Assembly (NCBI GenBank): GCA_905178155.1
Contig: CAJINV010000033.1
Span: 84,736-148,735 of the forward strand
DNA from: Amoebophrya sp. A120
Lineage: Eukaryota; Protista; Dinoflagellata
DNA length: 64,000 nucleotides
Direction: 5' to 3'
The notes beneath the pieces are model-generated. The model saw nothing but the letters and a program-made list of their open reading frames with translations, did not search any database and was not told the DNA's origin. This document shows, piece by piece, positions 36,899 through 64,000 of this stretch. The translations under genes were made by a program, and so were the position numbers. The first letter of the stretch is position 1. Every line of letters begins with the position of its first letter.

Positions 36899-37750
36899 TC
36901 TGCCACTACTCCCGTACGGGTACTTACCCGCCCCGGCGAGATTACTTAATGATATGCAGCTCGTTGGTTCAGACGATGAAGAATTTATAAAAGTTTCTGC
37001 TCGTTGATGAAGTGAAGAATAAACGTTTCAGTGGTGTTTCATTTTGTTGTCACTTTCTCTCGGAAGCATTCTACTCATCCTGAAGGCACTTCACTATGTG
37101 TCGTGGTCAACAAGCTGCAAGTCCTCTGACAGCTTTGCGACTGCCTGTTCTTGTGTCCCGTCTTCAGTTCCTTCTGATCATGTCAAGACACGTTGATTAT
37201 ATGGCAATGAATAGCAATGATCAGTCACGTACTTGTACTTCTGGTGAAATCCCGGCTCGATGGCACCATGATCCCAGCACTTGTACGCAATGAAGAAAGG
37301 ACGAGAGAACAAGAGTTGATGTTTCTGGAGTAGCCAGGGAGGAGCGTGCCACTAAAGATCCCAAACTAAATATGTGAGAGAATGATCTGGTCGGTGGCCA
37401 GCATGAAAAAGATGATGCACTATGTTCGCACAAGAATTGTGGGGCGATTCACATTCACACTGACACCGGGCAAAGATTCTATAAAAATGATGTTATTTTG
37501 TTATCTTTGAGTAGCTCCTTCTGCTACTTTTGTAGTTTAGACTCTCTCTAGGATCATCAAGATGAAGCATCTTTGGCCGTTGTTTTCAGGTGCATTCCCT
37601 GTGGTCGTGACGCTCGGTCCTCGGCGTTTTGCGTGTTGAACAGGTAGTTGCGTTGTCTGCTCTTGGACACATCACGACTGAGCAGGTCCTCTCCCGCAGC
37701 AAGGCCGCGTTCTCGATCGCACGACCAGCACACCGTCGTCGAAATAACAA

Positions 37751-43700: not shown

Positions 43701-46700
43701 GGACGTGGGGCCTATCAAATGTAAAAATGTCTGGGTCTGGAAGAATGCCAGACTTGTCATGCATATTTTGCATGACTCGGGATGTCTGTAATGCGTGATC
43801 TGGCATCACATATTTCTAGAGGCCTTCCTGATGCCTATCCCGCATGACAAATGCCCTCCCCGCGTAGCACAAACTGGGCGCCTCTTCCTGGTCATGCAAT
43901 ACAGATTTTTTTAGAGTCCAAAGTTAGCATCACAAGTTGCATTCTTCCAGACCCAGACACTTTTGCATTTGATAGGGCCGAACGGCCTAGACCCGCACGG
44001 TGCAGCGCTGGCAAGCGCGGAACAGGGCGGTGGCGGGGGCATTTCGCCGAGCTCGACGATCGTGTCGGGGTCGAGCGCCACGAAGCTCGCGGCGGAGCCG
44101 CTGCTGAGCGGGTTTTCGACGAAAAGCGGGGGGTTCTGCGACGTGAGTGTGCAGGAAGACGTCGAGATGCGCGTGACGAGGAGAAGGCCAATACATTCCC
44201 CGCGGTGGGCGGGAACAAGAATGTATAGTGCCGAATAGATGCTGTAGCGTTTGTCGCAATAGTACAAGTGCCGATGCGAAGGCGTCTACGTCTTTGCAAC
44301 ACAAACTTTTTGTTGATTCGCAGTACTAACTTACGTAGAGAAAATCCAACTTCAATATGCTTCATTTCTTGTATACCATTTGCATTTGTTTCACCTCGCC
44401 GCTCCTTACAAATTGAAATTTCCCCTGCCTAGTCCTTCATGGAAGATTTTCTGCCCGACGAGGATCACTTCCAAAGAATGTAAACGTACTTACACGATGG
44501 ATCCAGGTTTCCCCCCATCCCCACCGTCGCAGAAGACGAACTAGTTCGATGGCACGACAGCCCAGAGAACGCCGAACTGATGGAATGTAAGTCGTACATG
44601 TGCGAACTCTGCCTCCGTGTACACGACCTGGCGATCGATCAGATCCTAGGCCGCATCGTCCCTCTCTTCAAACAGTGGGAGGCCACCACCGCGGGCGGTC
44701 GGCAGGGCTACACTGGCGCGCGGTTCAGTGAGCAACAGGGCGCTCTATGGATCGTGAATGTATCGTACTACAGTACGGAGACGAACTGCAAAACTTAGCA
44801 TGAAAAATGGGATTTGGAATGCGGATCTTCCACCTTAGGAGTGGAGAGGGATTTGTATTGATGCATGATTGCAATTACTAGAGACTCCTACGAATATTAC
44901 GATACTTTTGCAAACCATACTCTCCCGTTTCCATTGATTTGGTCGAGCAGGTATTGCTACCCATTGCAAATGTGCCTGGGTCCCCCGGAATTTTGCCATG
45001 CGAAAAGTAGATGAAGATGAATGACAAATGACTGACTGGCTCCAGTACGCAGCTAAGCATGAGAAGTTTCACAGCGGTTTTACTTTTACAACGGTAGTGC
45101 GAAGTGCGCATGAGAATAAAACACGTTTTTTCGACGTGACAGAGACGTGCCGCTCTGCGGCAACATGCATCACAGAGTTCAGAACGGGTTCGAGTATATT
45201 ATACAATAATGCGTGTCCAGCTCCAGAATGTGAATGAGGACAAGTCATATTTGCAATGCATAGATGCGGCAAATCACGCTGAAGAAGTTCGGGTTCGATA
45301 CGTATATGGACGGCGGCAACTTCACGGTCTATCAAAATGAAAAATCCCCCCACCCCACATCAAAACGAAGTTTGTTATGTTGGATTTGCGTACACAAATC
45401 AGATTTGTCTTGCTTGGAGAGAGGACTGCAGGCCCCTGCCATGCCTGAGTAGAGAGGTTTTGGCCTAGGCGCTTAGCATGAGAAACGTCTATGCTGTAGC
45501 CAACAGCATGACAAACCGCCTGCATAATGCGGCAGAGCCTGTGGAGTTGTCTTCTTGCAACACAGACGTGCGCTGTGGTCTCAAATCAGCAAGAGGAAGT
45601 TCGGCGTGTCGGGTGAGGGACCCCCGACGTCTGGCCTACGGATATCATGGGGAACTAAGGCTCAAATCAGCAAGACAAATTTTCGGAAACATAGCGCTTC
45701 GATATGGGGAGGGGGGATTTTCACTCTCGATACGGTCATGCTACTGGACTTGCTGATGTACGAAAATGCGAACTTGTTTCAGTTGGTGTTGGAATTGATC
45801 TTTAAAACGGGGTTCCGCACGAAGGAGGCCTTGAAAAATATGGACAGCGTCTTCCTGGTGCTCAACACGGACGAGGACAGGAGAATAGCGACGATGCGGC
45901 GGGACATCGTCACTCTCACGAACGGCTTTCACACGTTCGAATCCTGGGGGCAGTCGGACTCCTTTTCCCAGCACGATTCCGAGAAGGCGAAAAACATGAA
46001 CGCGATTTGCCGCCGCTTGCGGCACAACTGCTCGGTCGGCGGCCAGGACACGGGCGACACGAGTGTGCCGGACGAAACGGCGCAGCGGAACCTACTGGAC
46101 CTCGGTCTGATGCGCGCGATTTCCGCCGCGATAAGCATCCCGATCACGGAGTTTCAAGGCGAGGGTTTGAACGTGTTGAAAGAGATGATGAAGGAGGTCA
46201 CGGGGCTCCTGACCATGTTTGTCTACGACAACAAGCGAAACCAGCATGCGGCTTTCGAGCACCTCCCCACACTGCGCATATCAAATGCAAAAATGTGTGG
46301 GTCTGGAAACTTGTGATGCTGGGTGGCGTATCATGAGGAGGCCACAAGTGCTGGCTCAGCATGGCAAATTTTTGAGCTTCCAGGTGTTGCCTATTCTGCA
46401 TGAAAGGGACACGCCGTTGGGTCGTCCGCCATCGTGATAGGATCGCCGTGTCTGATCATTCGACCCCCTGTATGCTTTTTAGCGCGCAACCGGTCACAGA
46501 AGTAAGTCTTAGAGCAAGTTTGTAAGACTAACCCATCAAGGCAATACTGGAGCTCCACCGTGCTCGCGGGCTTGGATGGTAAGGCAGGTCAGCCACACAT
46601 AGCGCCCACTGGCTGTAGCCATGCGTAAGCAATCGATAGCAGTTTTGCAGGTGCAGCCGGGTGGTAGTTAGGAAGTGGGCCGGGTCCCCACGACCTAGGG

Positions 46701-49700
46701 GCATCGGCAGAGGCTAAATGTGTTCTAGCGCCCAGGTATTGGCAGAGGCTAAATCTGTTCTAACGCCAACCCGCCAGGAGTTAAATGGTACTACTACTAC
46801 TACTGCATGACAGAAAAATGGTGCTCTTGGGTAACGTGCATGACTACAGATTCGAGAGTCATGCCAGACAAGCATGACAAACATGCATTCTCCCAGACCC
46901 AGACATTTTTGCAGTTGATAGCGCACCTGGTTTAACTACGGCGTCGGCATGGCAAACCCCATCGCAAGTATTTTCCGCAACAACCGGGAGCTGTGCGAGA
47001 AGGTCCCCGTGGCTCTGATCTACGACTTCGCTTTCGCGCTGCAGGCCCGGTCCCGCGGCTTCTTGCCGCACCAGCTGGCGTTTTTCCACTCGATCCTGGT
47101 GGTGGGGGACCGAAAAATCAACCGAAACGCGGATATTCTAGCGGAAATCCTGTCGAAGCCAAGGTTTGATAAGGTTCTCCACTGCTTGTTCGACTCCGAC
47201 GGGCGGAAGAAACGCCGGAGCATGCTGCGGAAGTTTGCGAGTTTGGAGGAATTGTCGAAGCCCGAGCCGTATGAATTGCAAAAGTATCGTACTCGTATAA
47301 ACGCATTACAAATTTCCTCAGCATGTTGATAAATAAAATTTGTAAAAATGCGGATATACCTAAGGAAAAAGATTTGTAATGCATGGGCGCAATTACTACG
47401 AGTACGAGACTTTTGCACAGGATAAGCCGTTCCGAAAGTGGAACGGCGACGACGCCGAGCTTGTCTACTCCGTGAAGTCGGTCGAGCTTCTCAGCTTGAT
47501 TTGCCTCGGCCAGGGTGACGGCGGACGGTCCAGCTTCGTGGTGAACATGATTTCGCCAGACTCACTGACGGTCCAGTACATGGAAGTCCATGAGACCGTC
47601 TACATTACCACCGAGCCGGTCGGCGGCCAGCCCTCGATCTCCAAGGCCGCACAGGAGATGGCCCGGGTGTTACAGGGCGCGATGCTGGACCTGATGTCCA
47701 ACTGCTACTACGAGACGGAAGTAAGGGACGACCGGTTCTGGAATTCGGATATTCACTTGTATCTACTCGAACTGCTCACCACGGAAATTGACAAAATCTT
47801 CAACGTATCAACTGCAACTATGTCTGGGGCTGGGAGATTGCGAGACTTGTCATGCTAGTCTGGCATGACTCTGAGCTCTCTATTACGTGGCCGCGAAGAG
47901 CTCCGCTTGCCCGTCATGCAAAAACGCAGTCTCTCGTGCGGAGTACGCAACTCAGAACCACAGCAAAACTTGTCATGCTGGGCAGCGCATTACAGTGCTT
48001 TCACTGTACAACTCCCTTCCCTGCAACACAGGTTTCCAGACCCAGACATGTTTGCATTTGATACAACGTGAGTGCAAAGAACCGCCCGGTCACGGACAGC
48101 GAGGAGATTTTCGTCCACAGGGTGCTCCGCGCGCTAAACAACTACGTGCAGTGGGCGATGAGCATCACGGAGAAGCACGGCACCACGCACAAGGGCATCC
48201 TGGATTTGTGCTATCCTGAGTAAAAACGTCCCCACACCAGAGTTGTCATGCAGATTTGCAATGACAGGAACATTTGTAATGCGCATCGCCAGGAGAGGCA
48301 TTTTTAGTCGTGTTTTGGAATTTGTAATGTTGTAAACAGGATGAGCAGATGGATTTCTGATGCAGCTGGCCATGCGAACCTGCACTAAACTACGGACTGC
48401 AACTTGTGACGCGTGACCCTCAAAAGTTCTAGGTTTGTGTTGCAAAATCCCCATCTTGACTAGGTTTGTGTTGCAAAATCCGCCGCATTTTTTTAAAAAA
48501 TTGCCGGTTGCAGCGGCATCTAACTCGAAGTTTGACAAAGCACTTTATAAGAAAAAGCACTTCGTAAAGAAAAGCACTTCGTAAAGAAAAGCACTTCGTA
48601 AAACAAAACGTAGTCATGTAAAGCAGCACGGCAGATACTTCAACATACTAGCAGTGTGCGGGGGGGGCCAATGTGGTCCCCCCCACGCGCTGCGCCTATA
48701 AATAAAACACGCCAGGGAATTTTCTTTTTTTTCCAGCAGAGGCTGGCTGTGGGACTTGGGGCAATGCCGGGGATTAGAAATGCAAATATGATGGCAGTGC
48801 GTTTCTACTCTTAAGTATCCTGCTTCAAACATGTTTTATTTTTTTTTGGCCTTTTGTCACGCTCTTTGTCATTGTCTTTGGATTAGTACCGCGTCACACA
48901 ATTGCACAAGTATTTAGAAAACATCATGGAAAATGGCACGCGGAGTCGGAAACATTGAAAACGACGCCGAGCTCGACGGANNNNNNNNNNNNNNNNNNNN
49001 NNNNNNNNNNNNNNNNNNNNNNNNNNNNNNNNNNNNNNNNNNNNNNNNNNNNNNNNNNNNNNNNNNNNNNNNNNNNNNNNTGTACGAAAATGCGAACTTG
49101 TTTCAGTTGGTGTTGGAATTGATCTTTAAAACGGGGTTCCGCACGAAGGAGGCCTTGAAAAATATGGACAGCGTCTTCCTGGTGCTCAACACGGACGAGG
49201 ACAGGAGAATAGCGACGATGCGGCGGGACATCGTCACTCTCACGAACGGCTTTCACACGTTCGAATCCTGGGGGCAGTCGGACTCCTTTTCCCAGCACGA
49301 TTCCGAGAAGGCGAAAAACATGAACGCGATTTGCCGCCGCTTGCGGCACAACTGCTCGGTCGGCGGCCAGGACACGGGCGACACGAGTGTGCCGGACGAA
49401 ACGGCGCAGCGGAACCTACTGGACCTCGGTCTGATGCGCGCGATTTCCGCCGCGATAAGCATCCCGATCACGGAGTTTCAAGGCGAGGGTTTGAACGTGT
49501 TGAAAGAGATGATGAAGGAGGTCACGGGGCTCCTGACCATGTTTGTCTACGACAACAAGCGAAACCAGCATGCGGCTTTCGAGCACCTCCCCACACTGCG
49601 CATATCAAATGCAAAAATGTGTGGGTCTGGAAACTTGTGATGCTGGGTGGCGTATCATGAGGAGGCCACAAGTGCTGGCTCAGCATGGCAAATTTTTGAG

Positions 49701-52700
49701 CTTCCAGGTGTTGCCTATTCTGCATGAAAGGGACACGCCGTTGGGTCGTCCGCCATCGTGATAGGATCGCCGTGTCTGATCATTCGACCCCCTGTATGCT
49801 TTTTAGCGCGCAACCGGTCACAGAAGTAAGTCTTAGAGCAAGTTTGTAAGACTAACCCATCAAGGCAATACTGGAGCTCCACCGTGCTCGCGGGCTTGGA
49901 TGGTAAGGCAGGTCAGCCACACATAGCGCCCACTGGCTGTAGCCATGCGTAAGCAATCGATAGCAGTTTTGCAGGTGCAGCCGGGTGGTAGTTAGGAAGT
50001 GGGCCGGGTCCCCACGACCTAGGGGCATCGGCAGAGGCTAAATGTGTTCTAGCGCCCAGGTATTGGCAGAGGCTAAATCTGTTCTAACGCCAACCCGCCA
50101 GGAGTTAAATGGTACTACTACTACTACTGCATGACAGAAAAATGGTGCTCTTGGGTAACGTGCATGACTACAGATTCGAGAGTCATGCCAGACAAGCATG
50201 ACAAACATGCATTCTCCCAGACCCAGACATTTTTGCAGTTGATAGCGCACCTGGTTTAACTACGGCGTCGGCATGGCAAACCCCATCGCAAGTATTTTCC
50301 GCAACAACCGGGAGCTGTGCGAGAAGGTCCCCGTGGCTCTGATCTACGACTTCGCTTTCGCGCTGCAGGCCCGGTCCCGCGGCTTCTTGCCGCACCAGCT
50401 GGCGTTTTTCCACTCGATCCTGGTGGTGGGGGACCGAAAAATCAACCGAAACGCGGATATTCTAGCGGAAATCCTGTCGAAGCCAAGGTTTGATAAGGTT
50501 CTCCACTGCTTGTTCGACTCCGACGGGCGGAAGAAACGCCGGAGCATGCTGCGGAAGTTTGCGAGTTTGGAGGAATTGTCGAAGCCCGAGCCGTATGAAT
50601 TGCAAAAGTATCGTACTCGTATAAACGCATTACAAATTTCCTCAGCATGTTGATAAATAAAATTTGTAAAAATGCGGATATACCTAAGGAAAAAGATTTG
50701 TAATGCATGGGCGCAATTACTACGAGTACGAGACTTTTGCACAGGATAAGCCGTTCCGAAAGTGGAACGGCGACGACGCCGAGCTTGTCTACTCCGTGAA
50801 GTCGGTCGAGCTTCTCAGCTTGATTTGCCTCGGCCAGGGTGACGGCGGACGGTCCAGCTTCGTGGTGAACATGATTTCGCCAGACTCACTGACGGTCCAG
50901 TACATGGAAGTCCATGAGACCGTCTACATTACCACCGAGCCGGTCGGCGGCCAGCCCTCGATCTCCAAGGCCGCACAGGAGATGGCCCGGGTGTTACAGG
51001 GCGCGATGCTGGACCTGATGTCCAACTGCTACTACGAGACGGAAGTAAGGGACGACCGGTTCTGGAATTCGGATATTCACTTGTATCTACTCGAACTGCT
51101 CACCACGGAAATTGACAAAATCTTCAACGTATCAACTGCAACTATGTCTGGGGCTGGGAGATTGCGAGACTTGTCATGCTAGTCTGGCATGACTCTGAGC
51201 TCTCTATTACGTGGCCGCGAAGAGCTCCGCTTGCCCGTCATGCAAAAACGCAGTCTCTCGTGCGGAGTACGCAACTCAGAACCACAGCAAAACTTGTCAT
51301 GCTGGGCAGCGCATTACAGTGCTTTCACTGTACAACTCCCTTCCCTGCAACACAGGTTTCCAGACCCAGACATGTTTGCATTTGATACAACGTGAGTGCA
51401 AAGAACCGCCCGGTCACGGACAGCGAGGAGATTTTCGTCCACAGGGTGCTCCGCGCGCTAAACAACTACGTGCAGTGGGCGATGAGCATCACGGAGAAGC
51501 ACGGCACCACGCACAAGGGCATCCTGGATTTGTGCTATCCTGAGTAAAAACGTCCCCACACCAGAGTTGTCATGCAGATTTGCAATGACAGGAACATTTG
51601 TAATGCGCATCGCCAGGAGAGGCATTTTTAGTCGTGTTTTGGAATTTGTAATGTTGTAAACAGGATGAGCAGATGGATTTCTGATGCAGCTGGCCATGCG
51701 AACCTGCACTAAACTACGGACTGCAACTTGTGACGCGTGACCCTCAAAAGTTCTAGGTTTGTGTTGCAAAATCCCCATCTTGACTAGGTTTGTGTTGCAA
51801 AATCCGCCGCATTTTTTTAAAAAATTGCCGGTTGCAGCGGCATCTAACTCGAAGTTTGACAAAGCACTTTATAAGAAAAAGCACTTCGTAAAGAAAAGCA
51901 CTTCGTAAAGAAAAGCACTTCGTAAAACAAAACGTAGTCATGTAAAGCAGCACGGCAGATACTTCAACATACTAGCAGTGTGCGGGGGGGGCCAATGTGG
52001 TCCCCCCCACGCGCTGCGCCTATAAATAAAACACGCCAGGGAATTTTCTTTTTTTTCCAGCAGAGGCTGGCTGTGGGACTTGGGGCAATGCCGGGGATTA
52101 GAAATGCAAATATGATGGCAGTGCGTTTCTACTCTTAAGTATCCTGCTTCAAACATGTTTTATTTTTTTTTGGCCTTTTGTCACGCTCTTTGTCATTGTC
52201 TTTGGATTAGTACCGCGTCACACAATTGCACAAGTATTTAGAAAACATCATGGAAAATGGCACGCGGAGTCGGAAACATTGAAAACGACGCCGAGCTCGA
52301 CGGAGCCGCATGAAGGGCGGCGGGGGGTTGGAAGATCTGCGCGCGTTGTCGGGGCCACAGAAAGAGGAAGACCAGGCCGCGGGGCATACGCACGCGGGGG
52401 AGGAGGGGGAAAACGGAGGCGAAACGAGAACAAGGGGCGCAGTACGAAAACGGATCGAGAACCAACATGCTGGAGCAGGGGACAAGAGCGGAAAAGTAAG
52501 AAATCGGGAAAAAAAAGCCGTATACCTGCGCAATTCCTTACATGTGAATAACATGGTGGGCGGGAGGGGTTCTTCACATTTTTGGAAACGCCCACCGCCC
52601 CGACTAGAATAACTGAATGATGAAAAAATTGGGGGCAGGGCAAAAAAAAAATCCCCATCTTGACTCTGGTGTGGGGATGTTTTTACTCAGGATTTGTGCA

Positions 52701-55700
52701 GGGGCCGGATGAGCGGGCTGCTGAAGCAGATTCAGAACCGGGAGTTGCCCATCAGCAAGGACGTGTTTCTGATCGAGAACAAGCGGCTAATCGCCTGGAT
52801 CGAGGGTTCCGACGCGAAAGACCAACTTCGCATTCCGTCCGGGGTCATCACCGGCACGGCGAACAAGGGCCAGCAGGGCAACAGGAAGTCCTCCAGCTCC
52901 TCCTCCTCCGACAGTCATCATGGCGACCTGAAGCACAGTCGCGGGCGGTACACGCGGTTTCTGTCGCAGTTGAAGCACTCGCCACTGGTGAAGCACGAAC
53001 TGCAGCGGGAATCGGACCTCTTGATCGCGAAGATGATTTCCATCGACCAGTACACCGATCCGACCAACGCGCAGTTTCAGTCGGCGAAAAAGCTGTCCAT
53101 GGCCACGGGGCAGCCGATCGGGTGCGACTACCGCCGGATCAAGATCAAACTCGAAGATTTGGTCGACCGCATGGTGCGCCACTGCATGCAGATCATGGGC
53201 GAGATTAGTGGCATGCCGACGATCTTGCGAGTGTACGAGCTGCTAAATTTGATCATCGACTACTGTGATATTAGTTCGGGCAGTACTACTACGAACGCCA
53301 TGTACACCCTGGTCGAGTGTCAAACCATTTTCACGAAAGCCGGCGTGGTGCGGCTGATCATCGAGACCTTGATGCTCAAGCCGGACGCACACATCACGCA
53401 GAAAGCGCTTTCCTTATGGCGTTCTCAAACGTTACATTCTCGACTTGTACATGAAATCTGTCATGCAAGAATGGCAAGAGTGAAAGGGAAAAGATCGGCC
53501 CTTTTGCATTACAGGTTTGGAGCAGATTATAATGGTATCTAGCGCGTCGAGAAGTTGTCATGCGGAGAAGGCTTGATCGTGTGCAGAGCGATAGTATTTT
53601 TGCATGACAAATCATGTAACAGTTGAGAATGTAACATTTGAGAACGCCATACTCCTTGGGGATTTCCATGCTGCGGCCGAACAACGAAACCGTGCAGCAG
53701 GCCTTCACCTATCACAGGAAAAAAGTGTATACAGTTACACATTTGTTGGAGTTTCTGCATCACAGAGTGGCTCGTCATGGCAAAGAAAACCTGTAATGTG
53801 CAGACTATAAGGGAAAACACGAATGAAATGAGATAGGCAAGCATGTCCTGCATGACAGAGGTTGTCTGTCTTGCTTGTCTCCCATTGGAGTGTGTAACTG
53901 TAACACTTTTTTCCCACGATATCACCGAGGTGTTCTACAGTACGGACGATTCCGGACTCTGGTCGGTCTTCTGCACGATTTACGACCAAATTCTGAACAA
54001 CTTGAAACCCGTCCGGACGCTGAAGAAGGTGCAGCGGAAGTACGAGCAGAAGCGGGCCCAGGTTCGCAAGGAGCGGCCGGACTTGGCCGCGCAATTGGAC
54101 GAGGTGTCTGACTCGGCCTTGACCAGCGAAGAGCAAGAGTATTTGCAAATCTGGTCCGATATCCTACCGAAAAAAGCATAATGAAACCATGTTGATTTCT
54201 TGATGTGAAGATGCAAATCGAAGTCGACTCATGCTGAAAATTTACCACGTGCAGCATGCCATGTGTGTGCGCTCCCGCCTCATGGCAAACCCGCTTCCTG
54301 TGTCGTGCAACTACGATCTATATTTTCGCATGACTTTCACATCAAGTCGAAGTTGTCTTCTGCGCCGTTTTTCGGTGTGATCTCTGAGCAGGTCGAGAGC
54401 TGCTGCAAGTGCATTGAGTTCCAGCAGAAACTGTCCGAGGGGCACAACCTAACCATGCAGAACTACACCTACAACCAGCACGACAACTCGGCTATTACAA
54501 TGAAAAATGCCCCCACCCCCGAACTTGGGAGCATTTGTATTGCAAACCTTTCCAAATGAAACATTCGCCCTCTTGCATCTATCAGCATCACAGATCTCCA
54601 ATCGTGAATAGCAAAAATTTGTATTGCAAAATACCCCAGCAAGAGCGGCGCTTGTCGTGCAAGCGATGCGATAGATACACACCTAGGCTCTGCATCAGAA
54701 AGATTCATACTCCTTTCATGCATGACAAAAAGTTTTCATTTGGAAACTTCGCATCACAAATTTTTGCAATTTCAGGGTTGGGGGGCACTTTTCGCTGTAA
54801 TATCGGCGTCAGTGAATTTTGTGGAAAAAACTGTGGACTTATTTGTGAAATTGACCAAGTCCCGGGAAATTGTGGACGACCTAGACGAAGAAGAGCTAAT
54901 ATGCATTGCGAACACCAATTATATCCCTGGATGTCTGGAAGGTTGCAACTTGTCATGCTAAGTCTTGGATGATCATGCAAAAGTCTGTGTTGCATGATTA
55001 CCAAAAGTTGTTCACTTTTGACCAGGTTAAGAGGCAGTTTCTCATGCAGGATAGGCCTGATAGAGATCTCACTCTCACAGCATTGGTCATGTTAGGCGCT
55101 GGCGCATTCCAGCCCTCATGGGTCATGGAAAACTGGCATCATAACTCGTGCATTCTTCCAAACTACCCGCCAGACATATTTTTTGCATTTGATAGCTAGC
55201 GCTCGCCTGCAACAGCCTGGATCTGATCATCGAAGTCTTGCAAGGGCCGTGCGCGAGGAACCAGGTGTACGTGTCTGTGTCCGGGCTGGTGGAGCAAATC
55301 AACAAAATTCTCCGCTGGCCCTTCGCGAACATCGTCGATTTGAACGACGTATGATCCTGTGCAAAAGTATCGTACTCGTACTGTAATTGCAGTAGTTATG
55401 CAGGACAAATCTCTTACTCTTTCTCGAGGCAAATCGGCATTACATAATGCTGAGGTAATTTCATATTCATTTGTATTGCAATTTACGCTAGTCGCGCGAT
55501 ACTCTTGTATCAATGCATACGACGGCGATCAGTACCCGGACAGCGTGCGCGAGCTGAAGTACAAGTGCTGTCTCTGTTTGAACTGTCTGCTGGAACTTCG
55601 TCCGGACACAGAAGTTATCCACTGGAAGAACCATGTCTGGGTCTGGAAACTCGTACTGCTGGGTTTGGAATATTAGTGTATCATGCTCTCTAGTAAAAAT

Positions 55701-58700
55701 GCACAGCCAAGCATGTTGAGAAATATCATCTGCGCTGCTTTTTAGTGTTGCGTTTTCCGCGTGACGGACTGCGTTTTTGCGTGGCAGTACATACATAGAT
55801 ACAAAAGGGTCTGCTCGTCTTCTTGGACACGCATTGTCACAAAGAACAACTCTTCAGTCATGGCAAAAGACAAGCCTGAAGACCACAAACCTTCGTATCC
55901 TTCCAGACCCGGTGGACATGATTGCGATGCATAGAAGTGCACCGAAATATCATCCACCGCGTGGACATTTCCACCTTTCAAAACCGAGTCATTTTTGCGC
56001 ACCGCTATTTCTTGTCCGAGGTGCTGAACTGCGGACCCACAATATCCTGAAGAAAAACGTCCCCACACCAGCGTCAAGATGGAAAATCTGCTAGACAAAT
56101 CAGCCAGCTTTGGTTGTTTCGCATGACAGGTCTATCCTCGTAGTGTAGTCGTGTTTAGGTAGTTTACCAGCGTCACAGATCTAGCATATCGTGCTGGTTA
56201 TAGCATCATAAATTCCAAAACACGACTAGGGAATGCGAGTGCCTCTCATGGCGCTCCGCATGAGAAACTTTTTTGGCGTGCAGATTTGCATCACAACTCC
56301 GGGGTGGCGGTGGGGACGTTTTATCTCAGAATACACAAATCTAGAGGCCTTCGACGAGCCGGACACTAAACTGAAGCTCCCCAATATCGCAAGAAATGCG
56401 TGTTACAGTTACACATTGTGTTGCAGGCAGAGCGAGACAGACAAGCTCTGTCATGCCGGGTATGCATAGGAGCGTTGTTTCATACGCGTTTTCATTCCCG
56501 TAGGAGTCACAACAAATGTGTAACTGTAACACTTTTTTCGTGTGATACCCAATAAGTCGCCACAGTTGGTGGTGGAAAACTTTACGAATGATTTAGGCAT
56601 TGCAGGAGCAACAGTATCTTCTGATATTAGTAGCAATTGCTAGAAGTGCTCGTGGTCCTCACAAAAATACGAGAAATAGAACTTGCATGCAATCATGTTG
56701 TTGACGTTTGGAAAATGGTCATGTAGGAATATAATTGCAGTTGCTACTATGAATTAAGTAGGTGCATGAAAAATACTTTTGCAGAGGATATGGTCAGTTG
56801 CAAGACTATTTCGGCTATGGATTGTAAAAATGTCTGGGTCTGGAAGATTGTCAGATTTGTCATGCAGCTTTTCCATGACCCACGAGGTCTGGAATGCAGG
56901 GCCTAGCATGACAGATTCTATGCGATCTCTCTCATGCCTACCCTGCATGAGAAACTCCCTCCCGACTTGGTCAAAACTGGGCCACTTTTGGTAATCATGC
57001 AACACTGATTTTTGCATGCTTCAGATTTAGCATGACAAGTTGCATTCTTCCAGACCCACACACTTTCACATTTGATATCGGCGAGGCCTGGGAGCTGATC
57101 ATGGTGATGAACCAATTGTCTGAAGCGGACGAGTATGCACTGCAAAAATGTCGGGGTCTGGAAGGATGGAACTTGTAATGCTTATTCTGGATCGTGCAAA
57201 AATCTGTGTTGCATGAATGCCAAAAGTTGTCCACTTTTGACCAAGTTGAGAGGAAGTCTCTCATGCAGGATAGGCATGATAGGGATCTCACAGGATCTGT
57301 CATGCTAGGTCCTGCATTCCAGACGATGCAGCTCATGGAAAATATGCATGACAAGTCTCACAATCTTCCAGACCCAGACATTTTCGCATTTGATAACGAG
57401 GACTTCAAAAAGGCCGCAAGACCAAACTTCGCGCTGGCCGAGAAGCAGTTTGGCCCACTGGACTTCGCCAACGACAGCGAGCGGCAAACCGCGGAAAACG
57501 CCCGGACGTACGTATCGCGAGGGAAAATCCTCCCTTCCCATATCAAGATGGAAATCTGTGATGCAGATTTTTGGTCACAATGCTATAAGGGCAATAAAGT
57601 TGCGGACTGTAGTGCTGGGTGGTGTGGGAAAGCCTTGCATATTCAGCATGACAGGTGGCAGCTGGAATTGGGACACAGCATGACAAATTAACTGCAAGCG
57701 AAGCCACAGCTGCGGCTGTTGGCCTTCTAGCAATACAAGTCGATTTGTGTTGTACTCAAATACAGCACGATAAATTCGTTTTCGATGTTGGGAGCAGGGC
57801 GGATTTTTCTTCTTGATAGTGCGCGAAGAAGTTTGTGTTGGCGCACGAGTTTTTCTCGCGGTGGATTAAATCGATTGAAATCATGGTGGACGGAAACATT
57901 TTTGACGTGTGGTTCTATGCATTTTTGCAAAAGTGCAATATAGTATCCGATACTCGGTGTATAAAATAAAGTTGCGGTCGTGCATGTAGTGATAAGTCGA
58001 ACTTCATCGTCCCACCTGAAGATCTAGAAGCATTGCATTTTTTTCTTGAAATTTTTTTGCACGCTATTCCTTTTTATTATAGTTCTCCGATACTTTAACT
58101 TTTGCAATGCATATACTCCGCATGCCAGTGATTTGCGATTTTGTGTTGGGCAGTGCGAAAAGGGACATTGTGAACAAAATCAACTTCTCGTCGCCAGAAG
58201 AAAAAGCGGCCGAGTTCGTGGAAATGAGCGAAGCGATCTTCGCACAGGTACTTATTCCACAAATACTCCATACTTTCTAGAAGCACTACTACTTAAACGA
58301 CGAGGCAACACTATTTCATTTATCTTGCCACCAGCACGAAAATCTGACCAATGGTGTTTATTCATGCGCTAGTACAACGAACTCCTACTTCAACTACGTA
58401 GAAGCAAAAATGCTCGCACGTGATGAATTATTTTTTTAAAATAGCGCTGCAAAAGAAGAAGAACAACGTAAGTACTATCTCTCATCTACCTCTACACAGA
58501 CGGAGCACACTCGTGCGCTTTCGAAGTGGGAGTGGCCGATGGCGTTGTTGGTTCCAGGGCCGGCGAAGCGGCCGTTCAACTTTTTTCTGAAGAACGATTC
58601 GCAGAACTTGATGCGAATATCGGAGTACACGCTCTACATCGCAGTAGTGTTAAATTTGATCCTGGGAAACAACATGTACCTTGCTGACGTGAACGATGTG

Positions 58701-61700
58701 CAGGGAGATTTGCACCACCCCATCTACCCCATCCTCCACGCCGACGCCTATTGGTCCGTGATGGCAATCGCTTGGTTCTACCAGGTGCTCTATCACATGC
58801 AAATATGTTGTCTGGCTCTGGGAGGTGGTCCTCTGGGCAAAGCGGCTTACTTTTGATGTAGCGCATGAACGCACTCTTACAAGTTTTAGTTTATTTTTCG
58901 GTCACCTCGTCATGGAGAATTCATTCGCATGCAGCAAGCAAAGAAGTTGTTTGTTACCTCGTGGTCCCAGCACGACAAAAAAACTGGTCATTCCTATTCA
59001 TGCAACAGGATTACTAAAGAAGATTTTGGGGTTAAAATTTAGTACATTGATTCCGCAAGATCACACATGACATCTATCAGCATCCAGACCCACCAGACAT
59101 GTTTGCAATGTATATTCGAATGCTGATTACCAGCTTTATTTCCATCTGCCTCTACTCCCCTCTGGACCTGCGCAAATTTGAGGAAGAAACGAAAGTCGGC
59201 AAAAACGCGAGCTTTTTTGAGTACGTGAAGTCGACCAGGCCACTCGATTATCCACTGCAATAGAACAAATATGGTCTTCATCAAGTTGTCTGGAAAATGA
59301 CAACTGAGCTTGTCTTTGTCATGGTAAATGTGAACCGTGCATCGAAGTAAATCTGTGTTGCGTCAGCGGCAAATGCTACCCAATTTTCCTCGCCAAGCAA
59401 AGGGCGAACTTTCATCAATATGGAAAAATGGGTGTTTTCAAGCTCCGTTACGCAATCTTTTGTGACGCAGTTGTAGCTGCTTCCTCTGGTGTTTTTTTAC
59501 AACCTTTCTATCTTCGTCAACTTCACGAGAAGATTCGATTGATAAATGACTAATTCCAGAACAGCACCATCCAAGTTTCAATGCATATCGAAACCCTGTT
59601 GGCGGTGCTCACTCTGATCGCCGCGGTATACTGCTTTTCCATTCTCTACAAGATGCACTGGCTATCCTACAGAAAAAAGCGGTCAGGGCATATTTGCGAC
59701 GAAAAAATAAGTTAAGACAGAGAAATCAAATCACTCTGTTTAAATTCATCTGTGCTGGGCGCTCCGCGTGCTGTTTAAATTACAGCATACAAAGGACATG
59801 TTGCAAGAGGGATTGGTTCTTTTGCGTCTTTATTTTTGCATTACATACAAGTACCTGCTTTTTTTTCCGTGTGACACTGGCTGGCCTCCGTGATTGCGGT
59901 TTTCTTTCTGTGCGGGTTCTGGGACGACATTTGGCAGAAGCCGGAGGGGCACCGCCGAAACCACCGGTGTCCAAACAACTACTGGGCGCATCTGATTCGG
60001 ACGGTCGCCTATGCACCGCACATATGTCTGGGTCTGGAAAGGACAAGAAGTGAACTTCTCATGCGCATTCCACAACACACACAAATCTCTCATGCATAGG
60101 CAGCAAAAGTTAAAGTTGCCCACTTTCTGTCAGGAAATTGGGGGATTGTCATGCGGATTAGGAATTGTAGAATCTTCTCGATACCTGTGAAGATGCTAGG
60201 GCCTCCATGCCCGACCTTCTGTGTCATCCAAAAACAGCATGACAAAAATCTGCACCCTTCCAGACCGAGACATATTTGCATTTGATATCGCCATCGCCGG
60301 GGAAATATGCATTGCAAAAGTATCGTACTAGTATAGATTGCATCACAAATTTTTTCAAGAAGAGAAATGGAATTTGTAATGCTGATTTAGCTAAAAAGGG
60401 ATATTTGTCATGCATGATCGCAATTACTACGAGTACGATACTTTTGCACAGGATAGGAAAGAAGACCAATCTGGCGCCGCGTCGGACTGTCCATCATTTG
60501 TTGGCTGGGCATCTTTATGAATTGCAACAAAAGTACCGTAGTTTAAGTATCTTAATTGCAGCGCTGCCTGGAATTGGAAACTCAAATTTTTCATCAGGCA
60601 GCTTACAACTACGTAGTAATCTATTCTATTGAAATCAAAGTACTTACTCTTAGTGCGGTACTTGTGTAAAAATGCATAATCTTTGATGCGTGGTATTTCT
60701 TTTCCTTTCTGCTCCTGGACACGATGTTTCAGTACCCCATGCTGGAAAACGGTATCGAAGCGGAAAAAAAGCTCACCGCACACGACCCCGAGGACCTCGA
60801 CTGGTGGCCTTGCATGACAAGAAAACAGGTTACTACTTCTTGCCACGTTCAGCATTACAAGTTCCAATGCATACAAACCTGGCTTCTATCGAAGTGGATG
60901 AACAAGTTTGTGATGCGCGACTCTGCTTATTGATGTCGTTCTCGTTTGTAGATCCACAACATTCCACCAGGTTTGTACAACTACTCCAACGCCAACGTCG
61001 TGCGCGGAAAAGAAATTCGAATTGCATAACCTTGTTGAAAGCGGTGATGATACCGATAAAATCGCTGGGGCTGACCTTTCTACTTGGAATGATCATCATG
61101 TACACTTACGCGTTTGTGGGATTTTACTACTTCCGCCCGGATTTCTATCGCACGAAATACTTGCGGTCCCAGTCTCAACTTGTTGTAACAAGAACAACTT
61201 CGATAATTGTCGATTTTTTTTGTCCTCGAAGACGCATTAAATTTGTCTCCATTGAACTTCCCTTCACTGCTAAAATGGGCGGTGTTGCGTCGTTCAAGAT
61301 GCCTGGCTCTCAATGCAATCCAGTGCAGACAATTTACCTTCAGGAAACTTAGACAGTTCGTTAGCAGTTCCTGGCTCGCCTTGGCAGCTATTACAGTGCC
61401 GAAGAAGCTTGCTCCACATTGTCTTCCTGATGCGCCATGTCGAGCATGGCAGAATCTGTTATGCTGGACATGGCGGAAGAAAGCCAAGCATAGGTGGCTT
61501 TCGTGCGTTTTTTCTTTTGCTTTTGATGCATCAGAGTTTTTACTTTATATGAATGTGAATCGGTATGTAGCTGAAATTCCAATCTTCAAAAGGCCATCTA
61601 CTGAGACTGAGACATTTTTTTTTTCTTGCGATATCCCTGAGGGCGCCTGCACAAATATCGCGGATTGCACGGTGACGACGATTTATCAGGTAATATAGCA

Positions 61701-63052
61701 TCTTCATCTTGTCTAGAAATGTTTTTCTAGTTGCTCTCCAAAAACCGGTTACAAATATGAAAATTCGGAAACAAACTGCAGAAAGATGATGCTACATATG
61801 GGTGGATCGAATGTTGTCTTCACCGCACCATCAAGAGGAAGAGGTACAACAAGGAGGCAGCGTGATCATGATCGATTCTGTGTTGTAGTAATAAATCGAA
61901 CGCCTTCAACTTCAACATAACATCTTCGACCAGGGCATGCGTTCCGACATCGGCTCCGCCCTGCACGGGGTTTCGCCTTCGGTTCCGAATTGGTACGAAC
62001 GAGTGGGCTACGACCTGTCCTACTTCATCATCATCACCACCGTGCTGATGAACGTGATTTTCGGTATCATTTTGGACACCTTCGGGTCCCTCCGGGACGA
62101 AACCCAACAGCGGGAGGAGTACATGAAAAATGTCTCCTTCATCTCCTGCCTGGACCGGTCGGAAATCGAGAAGGCAGCGAGCGTGTTGGAGAATCCAGAG
62201 ATCCGATATCCAGAAAAAAACACCCATCCGCATCCATTTTTTGCATGCCAAACACTGGACCTTATGCATGTTCTGCATGACAAACTGGAACTGGATGGGG
62301 ATGGGTGTTTTTTCCTGGATATCCGATCCGGGTTCAAGTACGTGGAGGAGCAAAAGCAAAACAAGTGGAACTATGCACGGCAATAAACATGTGGGCTGGG
62401 CCAGCATCTGGAAACAAGTTCGATACTTGTACAGCTATCTTCACCCTCTTTTGTTACACAAGAACACACTTTATTCACATTCGCATGCGGACTGCGTGTA
62501 ATGCGAGAGCGTTCTGGTGGAATAAACATAACGTTGTCATGTTTATTATTTGGCTGCATTTGATGGAAGTGTTTGCATCGATCATCCGCATCATGATTTT
62601 GGCATCGCAACTTCCTACACCCTGACCCAGATCTTCGATATTTGCATTTGATAGGAACTACCTGAACTACATGTTCTATCTTTTCCGGAAAGAAAAGGAG
62701 AACTACTCCGGTCCCGAGTATCCTTTGTAAATAAGTATCGCACTAGTATCGACTAAATTTCTGTTGCAGATAGATATGCGTGCCAAAGTTTTTTCTTAAG
62801 GTAAAGGTATTAAACCAAGAGCATGACAAGAAAGAACTCAAAGGTTTTTCATGCAGACCAAGAATCTTGTATGTGAATGCGATTTAGACGACACGACTAC
62901 TAGCGCGATAGTAGTTTTGCAAGGTCGATATCGAGTCCTACGTGGCAAACCTGATGAAGGAGGGCGACAGCTCCTGGCTTCCCATAGGAAAATGCCGGCT
63001 TGTCGACGCCGCAACGGCAAAAATCGAGGAGGCGCACCAGCATAAGAAGTGA
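37751..63052 (+). CDS. Inositol 1,4,5-trisphosphate receptor-like Ca2+ release channel (IP3R/RyR superfamily), split by ~40 introners and several GT-AG introns
   Basis: LYMGDVILL..DIRDCLFKV, YGDTIQLFHIKSGKYLTV, FRHLGSGRYL, EGHNLTMQNY, QGPCARNQ, YDLSYFIIITTVLMNVIFGIILDTFGSLRDE and YSGPESYVA occur in IP3R order; stop at 63050-63052. Confidence 0.92.
38491..38739. mobile_element. Introner, singleton
   Basis: tatgtccggcttag / ctgagccgggtata; flanks tttcc/ttccg. Confidence 0.8.
39798..40008. mobile_element. Introner family G-like
   Basis: tatcgcaagaaaaaaa / tttttttcctggata; DR tcggc. Confidence 0.85.
40431..40783. mobile_element. Introner family A-like, degenerate
   Basis: tatcaatcgcaa / ttgcagtgcata; DR decayed; element+5 nt removal is in frame. 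Confidence 0.7.
40886..41147. mobile_element. Introner family A (262-bp subfamily)
   Basis: close copy of 13476-13737; DR gaccg/gacca. Confidence 0.92.
41978..42220. mobile_element. Introner family E
   Basis: family E TIR; DR gagta. Confidence 0.9.
42282..42424. mobile_element. Introner family D
   Basis: tatgcattgcaaaaacatcttcgcgctag as at 18390; DR gccgc/gtcgc. Confidence 0.82.
43441..43660. mobile_element. Introner family F
   Basis: tatggcgttctcaa / ttgaaaacgccata; DR aagct. Confidence 0.9.
43713..43974. mobile_element. Introner family A
   Basis: family A TIR; DR gggcc. Confidence 0.92.
44746..44919. mobile_element. Introner family D, degenerate
   Basis: tatgg...ccata ends; DR cgctc/ctctc. 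Confidence 0.75.
44958..45262. mobile_element. Introner family A-like, degenerate
   Basis: tacccattgcaaatgtg / catatttgcaatgcata; DR attgc/gatgc; joins EQVL-RQITL. Confidence 0.7.
45330..45732. mobile_element. Introner family H
   Basis: tatcaaaatgaaaaatccccccacccc / ggggaggggggatttttcactctcgata; DR cggtc. Confidence 0.88.
46279..46920. mobile_element. Introner family A, enlarged (642 bp); duplicated at 49603-50244
   Basis: family A TIR; DR gcgca. Confidence 0.9.
47270..47424. mobile_element. Introner family D; duplicated at 50594-50748
   Basis: tatgaattgcaaaagtatcgtactcgta TIR; DR agccg. Confidence 0.9.
47806..48063. mobile_element. Introner family A; duplicated at 51130-51387
   Basis: family A TIR; DR caacg. 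Confidence 0.9.
48981..49080. other. Assembly gap (100 N)
   Basis: run of n. Confidence 1.
49081..52304 (+). repeat. Copy 2 of the 3224-bp duplication
   Basis: matches 45757-48980; continues correctly into downstream IP3R exons. Confidence 0.95.
51536..52694. mobile_element. Introner family B, 1159 bp, carrying a nested ~840-bp insert (partial copy starts at 48212)
   Basis: tatcctgagtaaaaacgtccccacaccagag / ctctggtgtggggatgtttttactcaggatt; DR tgtgc; joins LDLC-RGRMS. Confidence 0.88.
51861..51925 (+). repeat. 17-bp tandem repeat aagaaaagcacttcgta, about 4 copies (also at 48537-48601)
   Basis: seen directly inside the nested insert. Confidence 0.9.
53415..53651. mobile_element. Introner family F (inverted relative to 43441)
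   Basis: long TIR tatggcgttctcaaacgttacattctc; DR ttcct/ctcct. Confidence 0.92.
53710..53921. mobile_element. Introner family G
   Basis: gaaaaaagtgt.tacagttacaca TIR; DR tcacc. Confidence 0.9.
54160..54382. mobile_element. Introner, singleton
   Basis: tatcctaccgaaaaa / tttttcggtgtgatc; DR tccga/tctga. Confidence 0.78.
54493..54802. mobile_element. Introner family H
   Basis: tattacaatgaaaaatgcccccacccc TIR; DR tcggc. Confidence 0.9.
54900..55194. mobile_element. Introner family A (diverged member of the 262-bp subfamily)
   Basis: internal similarity to 13476/40886; DR gctaa/gctag. Confidence 0.85.
55350..55519. mobile_element. Introner family D
   Basis: family D TIR; DR cgacg. Confidence 0.85.
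55616..55933. mobile_element. Introner family A
   Basis: gtctgggtctggaa / ttccagaccc; DR gaagt. Confidence 0.85.
56043..56333. mobile_element. Introner family B (inverted)
   Basis: family B TIR; DR cacaa. Confidence 0.88.
56385..56547. mobile_element. Introner family G
   Basis: gtgttacagttacaca TIR; DR cccaa. Confidence 0.9.
56594..56790. mobile_element. Introner family D, degenerate
   Basis: taggcattgca / ttttgcagaggata; flanks tgatt/tggtc. Confidence 0.65.
56816..57077. mobile_element. Introner family A (262-bp subfamily, inverted)
   Basis: reverse complement resembles 40886-41147; DR tcggc. Confidence 0.92.
57134..57395. mobile_element. Introner family A (262-bp subfamily)
   Basis: family A TIR; DR acgag. 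Confidence 0.92.
57513..57818. mobile_element. Introner family H-like
   Basis: tatcgcgagggaaaatcc / ggatttttcttcttgata; DR gtacg/gtgcg. Confidence 0.8.
57916..58113. mobile_element. Introner family D-like
   Basis: tatgcatttttgcaaaagt / acttttgcaatgcata; flanks ggttc/tactc; joins VWF-RMP. Confidence 0.8.
58791..59114. mobile_element. Introner family A, DR decayed
   Basis: tatcacatgcaaatatgt / acatgtttgcaatgtata; element+5 nt removal is in frame. Confidence 0.78.
59249..59587. mobile_element. Degenerate introner
   Basis: tatccactgcaa / ttcaatgcata; DR tcgat/tcgaa. Confidence 0.75.
59663..59876. mobile_element. Introner family C, diverged
   Basis: tatcctacagaaaaaagcgg TIR; DR ctggc. Confidence 0.82.
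60010..60287. mobile_element. Introner family A
   Basis: family A TIR; DR tcgcc. Confidence 0.9.
60306..60455. mobile_element. Introner family D
   Basis: tgcaaaagtatcgtact / agtacgatacttttgca; DR ggaaa. Confidence 0.92.
60516..60678. mobile_element. Introner family D, degenerate
   Basis: tatgaattgc / aatgcata; DR atctt. Confidence 0.82.
60753..61028. mobile_element. Degenerate introner
   Basis: tatcg...gcata ends; flanks aacgg/acctt; in-frame join LEN-VLKAV. Confidence 0.72.
61146..61633. mobile_element. Introner, singleton, DR decayed
   Basis: tatcgcacgaaa / tttcttgcgata; in-frame join PDF-EGAC. Confidence 0.75.
62207..62321. mobile_element. Introner, singleton, 115 bp and stop-free in frame
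   Basis: tatccagaaaaaaacacccatcc / ggatgggtgttttttcctggata; DR tccga. Confidence 0.92.
62372..62653. mobile_element. Introner family A-like
   Basis: tatgcacggcaa / ttgcatttgata; DR ggaac; joins KWN-YLNY. Confidence 0.85.
62719..62930. mobile_element. Introner family D, degenerate
   Basis: tatcc...cgata ends; DR ccgag/tcgag; joins YSGPE-SYVA. Confidence 0.85.
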
Positions 63053-64000
63053 AGTAGTAGCCTCGTGCTCGTACGAGGAATAAAAATAGAAGGGGCAGGC
63101 CGGGAAACTTCAAAAATGATCTTCGTCCTCCGTTGAAAATTGCTTTCCTCGAGCTCGACTTACACTTTGCCATGCAGGAAGATAGCTGCGAAATACTAGA
63201 ACGAAGTACTACACAGGAACTTAAGTATCAAAACTGTTATTTCCAGGAATGATCTTACTAAGCAAAATAACGTAAAAGAATCTGCGTCTAGAAGTTTCTA
63301 AAAAGATTGCCCTTGACGAAAGGCTGTGAAATAAATCTGCTGAATACTTTTGCATGCTTTCTCCAGTACAGACAACTTGATAGTAATAGAAACACAAGAG
63401 TCAGCATCTCGCTTGTGGGTCCGAATAGAGGTAAGTAGAAGTACACCTGTCGAGCTTTCGCTGCAATAGCGTTGAGTGACGAGGCTGTAATAATTTGTTT
63501 TCGCGGTGAATGATGTATACGAATCTTTTGGATGAACATGGGCCGGATAGAAGTAGGCTGTTCAATATTCAGTTTCTTTTGTAATCACACACCTGCAGTT
63601 GATGCCGTAAATCCTATTAACAAAAAGAAGCTGAGCAATTTCTTTTTCTGAATTCCAAAGGTGGTGACTGAAGAACTTGTAACCTTTTGGTACTATGAAA
63701 GCCGGCATGCCACATGGATAAGTATGTGCCCCCGTGTGTTTGGCAAGCTGCTCAACACCTTCTAAAGGGCACGTCGGGAAATGCAAGCTACAATTGCATT
63801 TGTAAAGAGGATGAAAATTAGAATTACAACATGATTTTTTCAAAGGCAGCCCACAGCTACTTACAACCTTCTCACCCGTCGTCTTTGAAGACAAAGTTTG
63901 GTGTGTAATCTTGAAAAAATGAAAAATCGTATCGTCGCTGAAAATCATATCGATAGCGCAGGAAAAATCTTTGCGGCGCACGTAGATGACCACCTGGAGA

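What the first reader, a model, noticed from the sequence alone, without database searches (positions are those of the whole stretch)
60748..61033. Diverged direct repeats reveal a fixed 4+1 splice register
Where the two 5-nt flanks differ, the protein constrains the cut. At 60753 (aacgg/acctt) only 4 nt from the left copy plus the last nt of the right copy gives N-V-L-K-A-V, like the IP3R 'NV.K.V' consensus. At 38491 the same rule gives A-F-R-V-R. At 56594 taking all 5 left nt creates a TAG stop. At 57916 the left copy is needed for V-W-F. So the intron would be N-TAT...ATA-NNNN: cut 1 nt before the left TIR and 4 nt after the right TIR, whatever the dinucleotides. The 5-nt spacing persists even where the repeat has decayed (58791, 61146, 40431). 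Inference: splice sites are measured from the base of the terminal stem, a ruler mechanism with a staggered geometry.
Basis: partly seen in the sequence, partly recalled or inferred. Interest (0 to 1): 0.85.

Follow-up and report, generated by a model that had tools for sequence, protein, structure and literature searches.

The report
Fixed 4+1 cut in transposon introns
In the marine parasite Amoebophrya A120, transposon-derived introns without GT-AG ends are joined at one fixed place in transcript contigs, 1 base before their TAT start and 4 bases after their ATA end, which likely reflects a measuring rule and makes an unsolved splicing mechanism testable.

Summary
Confirmed with transcript data. 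The window is Amoebophrya sp. A120. The finding is one of 40 TAT...ATA introners in an IP3-receptor gene, each between two 5-nt direct repeats. Spliced contigs of two runs of one sample resolve 14 of the 18 mismatched-repeat elements in the laid regions. Four are exact (60753, 61146, 40431, 58791): 4 nt of the left copy plus the last nt of the right. All 14 fit that register, and no other single register fits. At three exact sites the protein is the same for 4+1 and 5+0, so the register comes from the machinery. 'Whatever the dinucleotides' needs one fix: +2 T and +3 A do not vary in any oriented element, as in the GTA donors of the canonical introns here, while their 3' partners do (9 vs 0). 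Likely mechanism: a relaxed N|UA donor plus a 3' cut measured from the paired ends. Stem dependence is not shown; the focal stem is weak. The introners are published (Farhat 2021), with borders called variable or unknown; I found no statement of this register.

The parts
60748..60752 (+). Left 5-nt direct repeat AACGG; 60748-60751 stay in the mRNA, 60752 is intron +1
   Evidence: joint 60751->61033, both=0, runs X1 and X2
60752..61032 (+). Focal intron, 281 nt, G-TAT...ATA-ACCT (ends GT..CT)
60753..61028 (+). Decayed TAT...ATA introner, 276 nt; weak terminal inverted repeat (8 of 20 pairs); no close family member found among 60 window elements or 152 loci
61029..61033 (+). Right 5-nt direct repeat ACCTT; only 61033 stays in the mRNA
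61145..61637 (+). Intron with exact 4+1 join; repeat fully decayed (ATTTC/TCCCT); ends CT..CC
   Evidence: joint 61144->61638, both=0
40430..40787 (+). Intron with exact 4+1 join (CTGCG/CGGAT); ends GT..GA
   Evidence: joint 40429->40788, both=0
58790..59118 (+). Intron with exact 4+1 join (TGCTC/TTCGA); ends CT..CG
   Evidence: piece end 58789 plus contig arithmetic
56593..56794 (+). Intron with TAG start variant (TGATT/TGGTC); k=3 or 4; k=5 would give a stop
   Evidence: table 5c
38490..38743 (+). Intron (TTTCC/TTCCG); k=3 or 4
   Evidence: table 8
40885..41151 (+). Intron (GACCG/GACCA); k<=4; 91% identical to the element at 56816 in the opposite orientation
59248..59591 (+). Intron (TCGAT/TCGAA); k<=4
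33843..34116 (+). Intron in a second gene (ACAAC/ATATC); k=4 or 5
   Evidence: joint 33842->34117, both=1
54899..55198 (+).
   Evidence: offsets; joint not shown
57915..58117 (+).
   Evidence: offsets; joint not shown
37751..63052 (+). Host gene: inositol trisphosphate receptor-like channel; 3027-codon open frame after removing 40 introners, 6 GT-AG introns and one duplicated assembly block (true start not fixed)
   Evidence: Pfam Ins145_P3_rec, MIR, Ion_trans on single exons

Best explanation
These Amoebophrya A120 introners are removed from transcripts at one fixed register, 1 nt before the TAT and 4 nt after the ATA, likely because the 5' end is read as a relaxed N|UA donor and the 3' cut is likely measured from the paired intron ends instead of found by an AG. 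Shown: the register, its independence of the +1 base, of the last two bases and of the direct repeat, and removal in both orientations. Because 1 + 4 equals the 5-nt target duplication, exactly one copy is removed and the exon is restored. Inferred: the TIRs fold back and hold the ends together; +2 U and +3 A are read as sequence, as in the GUA donors of the canonical introns; the catalyst is a modified, U1-less spliceosome. Untested: the chemistry and the form of the excised intron.
For: Register: 4 exact and 10 compatible joins of 14 resolved; model coordinates match both contigs at constant offsets. Not set by protein: k=4 and k=5 give the same residue at 40431, 58791 and 61146. Not set by the repeat: exact at 0/5, 2/5, 2/5 and 2/5 matches. 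Not set by AG: an AG end is on offer at k=1 at 42282 and 44958 and is not used; none of 60 elements can be GT-AG at any k. 5' read as sequence: +2 T and +3 A in 60 of 60 window elements. Broken terminal pairs 1-2 lie on the 3' side in 9 of 9 oriented cases (5 window, 4 from the 152 loci; p=0.004). All 8 transcript-supported canonical introns start GTA. 3' tolerant: ATA, ATC, ATT, ACA, AAA in the window; ATG, AGA, GTA, CTA in loci. Pairing: each element's own ends pair better than swapped ends at TIR positions 5-20 (p<=0.004); terminal pairs P>=0.5 in 36 of 44 vs 6 of 120 controls. Opposite-orientation copies 40886/56816 (91%) and 43441/53415 (78%) are all removed. Literature: U1 not detected in A120 or A25 though most spliceosome proteins are (PMC7789003 section 10); U1 is present in a GT-AG Amoebophrya (PMC12005148 passage); all nine top A120 classes have T at +2 and all nine top A25 classes start TT (Table S4).
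Against: The stem step is weakly supported: no G-U over A-C excess (70 vs 65); terminal pairing P is 0.22-0.42 at the focal exact site, 0.45-0.48 at 58791, and 0 at 34280 and 55616, which are still removed at the right length. The +2/+3 asymmetry was seen after the fact, rests on 9 cases, and orientation in the loci comes from a codon score (19 of 20 right on non-training window elements); one element with CAT (L046) could not be oriented and would break the rule if it reads forward (then 11 vs 1, p=0.006). Window elements were first sought as TAT...ATA, which favours invariance. No branch point was found: -7 A is constant in the window but varies in L003 and L110. The two runs are one sample, kept as contigs, so minor join forms are invisible, and their RNA status is the tool's guess. 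Spliceosomal exon ligation normally needs the terminal G's (recalled).
Confidence: 0.55

Rival explanations
1. Pure stem-end ruler outside the spliceosome: a protein endonuclease reads the base of the terminal stem, makes two staggered cuts, and a ligase joins the exons. This is closest to the first reader's model and to what is proposed for Euglena.
For: Fixed 1/4 stagger whatever the flanking bases; predicted terminal pairing in 36 of 44; removal in both orientations; in Euglena paired motifs with fixed spacers are required, and non-spliceosomal factors are suggested (PMC12501133 sections 8, 12).
Against: Pairing alone does not explain why broken terminal pairs 1-2 fall on the 3' side in 9 of 9 cases, nor the shared TA at +2/+3 with canonical donors; weak predicted stems at 60753, 34280, 55616.
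Confidence: 0.2
2. Motif ruler without pairing: N|UA(U) and AUA-N4| are read separately, and the inverted repeats are only a trace of transposon origin.
For: Exact cut at 60753 despite 8 of 20 pairs; no G-U excess; the cut follows the terminal triplets at 40431, where the predicted duplex has a bulge next to them.
Against: A 3-nt motif that tolerates changes at each position (nine variants) carries too little information to place a 3' site alone; ATA occurs many times inside these introns (inference).
Confidence: 0.2
3. Cuts vary within the repeat, and the agreement reflects selection on the protein or the majority form kept by contigs.
For: Farhat 2021 calls the sites variable (Fig. 3 legend); annotation-based tables list mixed gt/gc/ga/at and 24-30% ag ends in large A120 families; contigs hide minor forms.
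Against: All 14 resolved sites fit one k; three exact sites are protein-neutral between k=4 and 5; sliding inside perfect repeats explains mixed annotation, since an AG end is available at some k in 23 of 60 elements but at k=4 in 1.
Confidence: 0.04
4. The joins are artefacts of reverse-transcriptase template switching at direct repeats, or element-free DNA alleles, or editing of one junction base.
For: Direct repeats around a hairpin are the classic substrate for template switching (recalled); no DNA run was laid as a control; X1/X2 are only guessed to be RNA.
Against: Exact join at 61146 with no repeat identity; the same contigs also lack all canonical GT-AG introns and give a 3027-codon frame; the fifth base equals the right-copy base at all 8 sites where it could be read and differs from the left.
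Confidence: 0.01

Closest known systems
Amoebophrya A120 introner elements (Farhat et al. 2021, PMC7789003)
   Same: Same organism and same objects: non-canonical introns with TAT-starting inverted repeats and 3-5 nt direct repeats over the borders.
   Different: [quoted passage not shown] 3 legend) and places IRs 1-5 nt from the sites (Fig. S23 legend). [quoted passage not shown] A single 1/4 register is not stated in the parts I read.
Euglena nonconventional introns (Nomura et al. 2025, PMC12501133)
   Same: No GT-AG, paired ends, likely MITE origin, cut sites at fixed unequal spacers from a paired triplet (3 nt and 5-6 nt, shown by knock-in).
   Different: Motif CAG/CTG versus TAT/ATA; spacers 3 and 5-6 versus 1 and 4; purine at the next exon start in Euglena, but T, T, T, A at the four exact sites here. 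Unrelated lineage, so convergence is likely (inference).
Introners of core dinoflagellates, Micromonas and Aureococcus (10.1101/2020.10.14.339549; PMC11282704)
   Same: TIR elements with target-site duplications that are removed cleanly as introns.
   Different: Those carry or recruit GT/GC/GA and AG and shift frame to find them; here the frame is fixed and no AG is used.
MITEs (non-autonomous TIR DNA transposons)
   Same: Short, TIRs, 5-nt duplication, dispersed families, both orientations.
   Different: Inserted in exons and spliced out; the mobilising transposase was not sought here.

Membership tests
Amoebophrya A120 introner element | Host is Amoebophrya A120 | tested here: met
   SDA1 exon 1521-2435 is 100% identical to a protein named Amoebophrya sp. 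A120; A25 orthologue 62%
Amoebophrya A120 introner element | Terminal inverted repeat starting TAT | tested here: met
   57 of 60 start TAT and 55 of 60 end ATA; own ends pair better than swapped ends; weak in the focal element (8 of 20)
Amoebophrya A120 introner element | 3-5 nt direct repeat over the exon/intron borders | tested here: met
   37 of 60 perfect 5-nt repeats; 137 of 160 de novo perfect-repeat hits in the loci are TAT...ATA, 2 false hits in shuffled loci
Amoebophrya A120 introner element | Removed from mRNA with non-canonical ends | tested here: met
Amoebophrya A120 introner element | Belongs to a repeated family | tested here: inconclusive
   met for 40886, 56816, 13476 and others; the focal element has only 16-17 nt matches in the small set searched
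Euglena-type nonconventional intron | N3-CDG...CH'G-N5-6 signature | tested here: not met
   signature here is N-TAT...ATA-N4
Euglena-type nonconventional intron | Fixed unequal spacers between paired motif and cut sites | tested here: met
   1 and 4 nt at 4 exact sites; 14 of 14 compatible
Euglena-type nonconventional intron | Purine at the first base of the next exon | tested here: not met
   T, T, T, A at the four exact sites
Euglena-type nonconventional intron | Pairing required for splicing; circular excised intron | not testable with these tools
   needs mutants and intron-product sequencing
Canonical U2 intron | GT/GC/GA donor and AG acceptor | tested here: not met
   no GT-AG at any k in 60 elements; AG offered and unused at 42282 and 44958
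Canonical U2 intron | Branch point and lariat | not testable with these tools
   no lariat reads available; -7 A is not invariant in the loci
Splice-site co-opting introners (core dinoflagellates, Micromonas, Aureococcus) | Splice dinucleotides carried by the element or recruited from the duplication | tested here: not met
   28 dinucleotide classes in 45 introns at k=4
MITE | TIRs, target-site duplication, short, dispersed copies | tested here: met
MITE | Cognate autonomous transposase | not tested
   no whole genome held
Template-switching artefact | Join depends on direct-repeat identity | tested here: not met
   exact join at 61146 with 0 of 5 identity

The most novel reading that the evidence does not exclude
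Amoebophrya A120 has a second splicing code for most of its introns: a U1-less machinery that takes any base at +1, reads UA at +2/+3, ignores AG, and sets the 3' cut 4 nt past the paired partner of +2 U. Its 1+4 ruler equals the 5-nt target duplication, so these transposons can insert at any exonic site in either orientation and vanish from the mRNA. It converges on the Euglena spacer code.
Probability: 0.5. Interest if true: 0.85.

Novelty: new variant of a known kind. Interest (0 to 1): 0.72.

Why it matters
About 65% of A120 introns are non-canonical (Table S4), and how they are spliced was left open. One positional rule replaces the apparent diversity of splice dinucleotides, fixes borders that annotation slides inside the repeats, and explains why these insertions are harmless at any site and in both orientations. 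It turns an open question into specific tests: +2/+3 bases, spacer lengths, stem pairing, lariat or circle. It also offers a second lineage to compare with Euglena.

Tried and rejected
No whole genome is held, and the contigs behind the loci are not held as records, so the test is not genome-wide. Raw-read runs gave no test: X8 laid 0 reads, X9 only 143 partly fitting reads, nearly all on a repeat near 51800-52500. No listed holder is on record as RNA. No DNA run was laid. A search for the full-length receptor protein among 591-2000 aa proteins gave one distant hit, and the representative search never ran, so 54160, 54900, 57513 and 57916 stay unresolved. A PDB search with the 36-aa exon after the focal intron found nothing, so the 'NV.K.V' consensus is recalled, not tested. 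A fixed branch A at -7 looked good in the window (60 of 60) and was dropped after GTA (L003) and CTA (L110) ends. G-U over A-C excess: none. Peptides by k at nine mismatched elements in the loci gave no stop-codon discrimination. A25 duplication lengths in the automated table range from 2 to 11 and do not test a 3-nt prediction. Earlier scan findings: none in three look-ups.

Full report
What the window is. The first SDA1 exon (1521-2435) is 100% identical to a protein named Amoebophrya sp. A120. The finding lies in a gene with Ins145_P3_rec, MIR and Ion_trans matches on single exons (5 of 9 pieces matched a family). Removing 40 TAT...ATA elements with one repeat copy each, 6 GT-AG introns and one duplicated assembly block gives 3027 codons without a stop for k=0, 2, 3 or 4; k=1 and k=5 give one stop each (k = bases kept from the left copy). 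I listed 60 elements in the window by hand and script; 37 have perfect 5-nt repeats and 23 are mismatched. One candidate near 29944-30014 was left out because its left end was unclear.

Checking the register. The run search listed ten runs, none on record as RNA among the holders. I laid four runs on 49082-64000 and two on 33700-45320. X1 and X2 (one sample, one study, contigs) lack both the elements and the GT-AG introns, and their coordinates match the model at constant offsets at 9 and 5 checkpoints. They behave as cDNA. They may be the sample behind the assembly, so they are not a second strain. The tool showed 15 of 34 and 15 of 21 joints. Of 18 mismatched elements in the laid regions, 14 were resolved. 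Eight come from listed joints: 60753, 61146, 40431 (k=4 exactly), 33844 (4 or 5), 44746, 44958 (>=2), 53415, 62719 (>=1). One comes from printed letters (56594, 3 or 4) and one from contiguous pieces (38491, 3 or 4). Four come from piece ends and length arithmetic: 58791 (4 exactly), 40886 and 59249 (<=4), 42282 (>=2). Not displayed: 54160, 54900, 57513, 57916. Five more mismatched elements lie outside the laid regions. Only k=4 fits all 14; P = 4e-6 for k=4 and at most 1e-4 for any single k under uniform independent k.

What sets it. Not the protein: k=4 and k=5 encode the same residue at 40431, 58791 and 61146. Not the repeat: the exact sites have 0, 2, 2 and 2 matches of 5. Not AG: no element can be GT-AG at any k, and an AG on offer at k=1 is unused at 42282 and 44958. 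At k=4 the 45 introns in laid regions fall into 28 dinucleotide classes. Copies in opposite orientation are both removed: 40886/56816 at 91% and 43441/53415 at 78%. Since 1 + 4 = 5, the cut removes exactly one repeat copy.

The two ends differ. In the window +2 T and +3 A are 60 of 60, +4 T 57; -7 A 60, -6 T 58, -5 A 57. I oriented elements by a codon score that was right for 19 of 20 non-training window elements; 114 of 160 de novo hits passed the cut-off. Broken pairs at +2/-5 and +3/-6 lie on the 3' side in 5 window and 4 locus cases and on the 5' side in none (p=0.004); two weakly oriented cases agree, and L046 (CAT) is unoriented. The +4/-7 pair breaks on both sides (4 and 2), which removes a fixed branch A at -7. 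All 8 transcript-supported canonical introns begin GTA. So the 5' end looks like a donor relaxed at +1. This was noticed after the fact and rests on few cases.

The stem. Own ends pair better than swapped ends at TIR positions 5-20. Terminal pairs reach P>=0.5 in 36 of 44 folded elements (51536 left out for length) against 6 of 120 random TAT...ATA pairs drawn from 2229, two of the six being real elements. Transposon origin predicts this too. There is no G-U over A-C excess (70 vs 65, p=0.73). The focal element has P 0.22-0.42 and its minimum-energy fold does not close the ends; 34280 and 55616 have P 0. The stem-ruler step is therefore plausible, not shown.

Mechanism. Shown: fixed register, independence of +1, of the last two bases, of the repeat and of orientation. 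Inferred: N|UA read as a donor, 3' cut measured from the paired ends, catalysis by a U1-less spliceosome (0.55). Rivals: stem-end endonuclease plus ligase (0.2), motif ruler without pairing (0.2), variable cuts (0.04), artefact (0.01). My confidence in the register itself is about 0.95.

Prior work. PMC7789003 (abstract, sections 10, 11, 12, 16, 32, supplement passages; figures not seen) describes these elements, reports U1 undetected, and calls the sites variable and the border unknown. Its Table S4 has T at +2 in all nine top A120 classes, and its text mentions four nt upstream of the IR, so the pattern is latent there and the unseen figures may show more. PMC12130899 (passages; 51 of 118 Amoebophrya rows of supplementary file 8; files 13 and 14 not searched) lists mixed splice sites and duplications of 2-5 nt for the A120 rows seen. 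Sliding inside perfect repeats explains this: AG is available at some k in 23 of 60 elements but at k=4 in 1. PMC12501133 (abstract, sections 8, 12) shows fixed 3 and 5-6 nt spacers in Euglena. Passages only: PMC11282704, PMC11453091, 10.1101/2020.10.14.339549 (63), PMC12005148, PMC11170887, PMC9860276. Seven searches found no statement of a fixed register for Amoebophrya; the library lacks most subscription papers.

Verdict. The elements are known; the rule appears new and works like the Euglena spacer code without being a member of it. Interest 0.72.

Noticed in passing
window 45758-48980 and 49082-52304: Exact duplicate (0 differences in 3223 nt) on both sides of an N gap; the transcript contigs run through one copy only, so it is an assembly artefact.
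   Followed up: yes
window 60288-60305 and 56791-56815: Micro-exons between adjacent introners (about 13 and 20 nt kept in the mRNA), retained in the transcript contigs (table 5c).
   Followed up: partly
window 49603-50244 and 51536-52694: Long elements (642 and 1159 nt) that look composite; the first 250 nt of 51536 match the 3444 family at 80%. Both are removed as one intron.
   Followed up: partly
window 34280-34460: Element with TAG...AAA ends and no predicted terminal pairing, still removed at the right length; could also be read as GT..AA at k=0.
   Followed up: partly
window 44223-44506: GT-AG intron that starts GTATAG, matching the N-TAT start; possibly an old introner turned canonical. 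No repeat remains.
   Followed up: no
L152:521-776 (minus strand): Element whose flanks suggest a 4-nt repeat (AGAAG / GAAGA); a 1+4 cut would shift the frame, and it scores as non-coding.
   Followed up: no
window 51770-52020: Run X9 holds reads of a related repeat inside the 51536 element but none on exons, so it likely comes from another strain or locus.
   Followed up: no
window 12960-13121 and 22586-22756: 89% identical, largely palindromic elements in two different genes, which suggests recent spread.
   Followed up: no
L001-L152: All 152 matches to the family pattern in the metagenome collection carry contig names of one assembly, JACKZZ01.
   Followed up: partly
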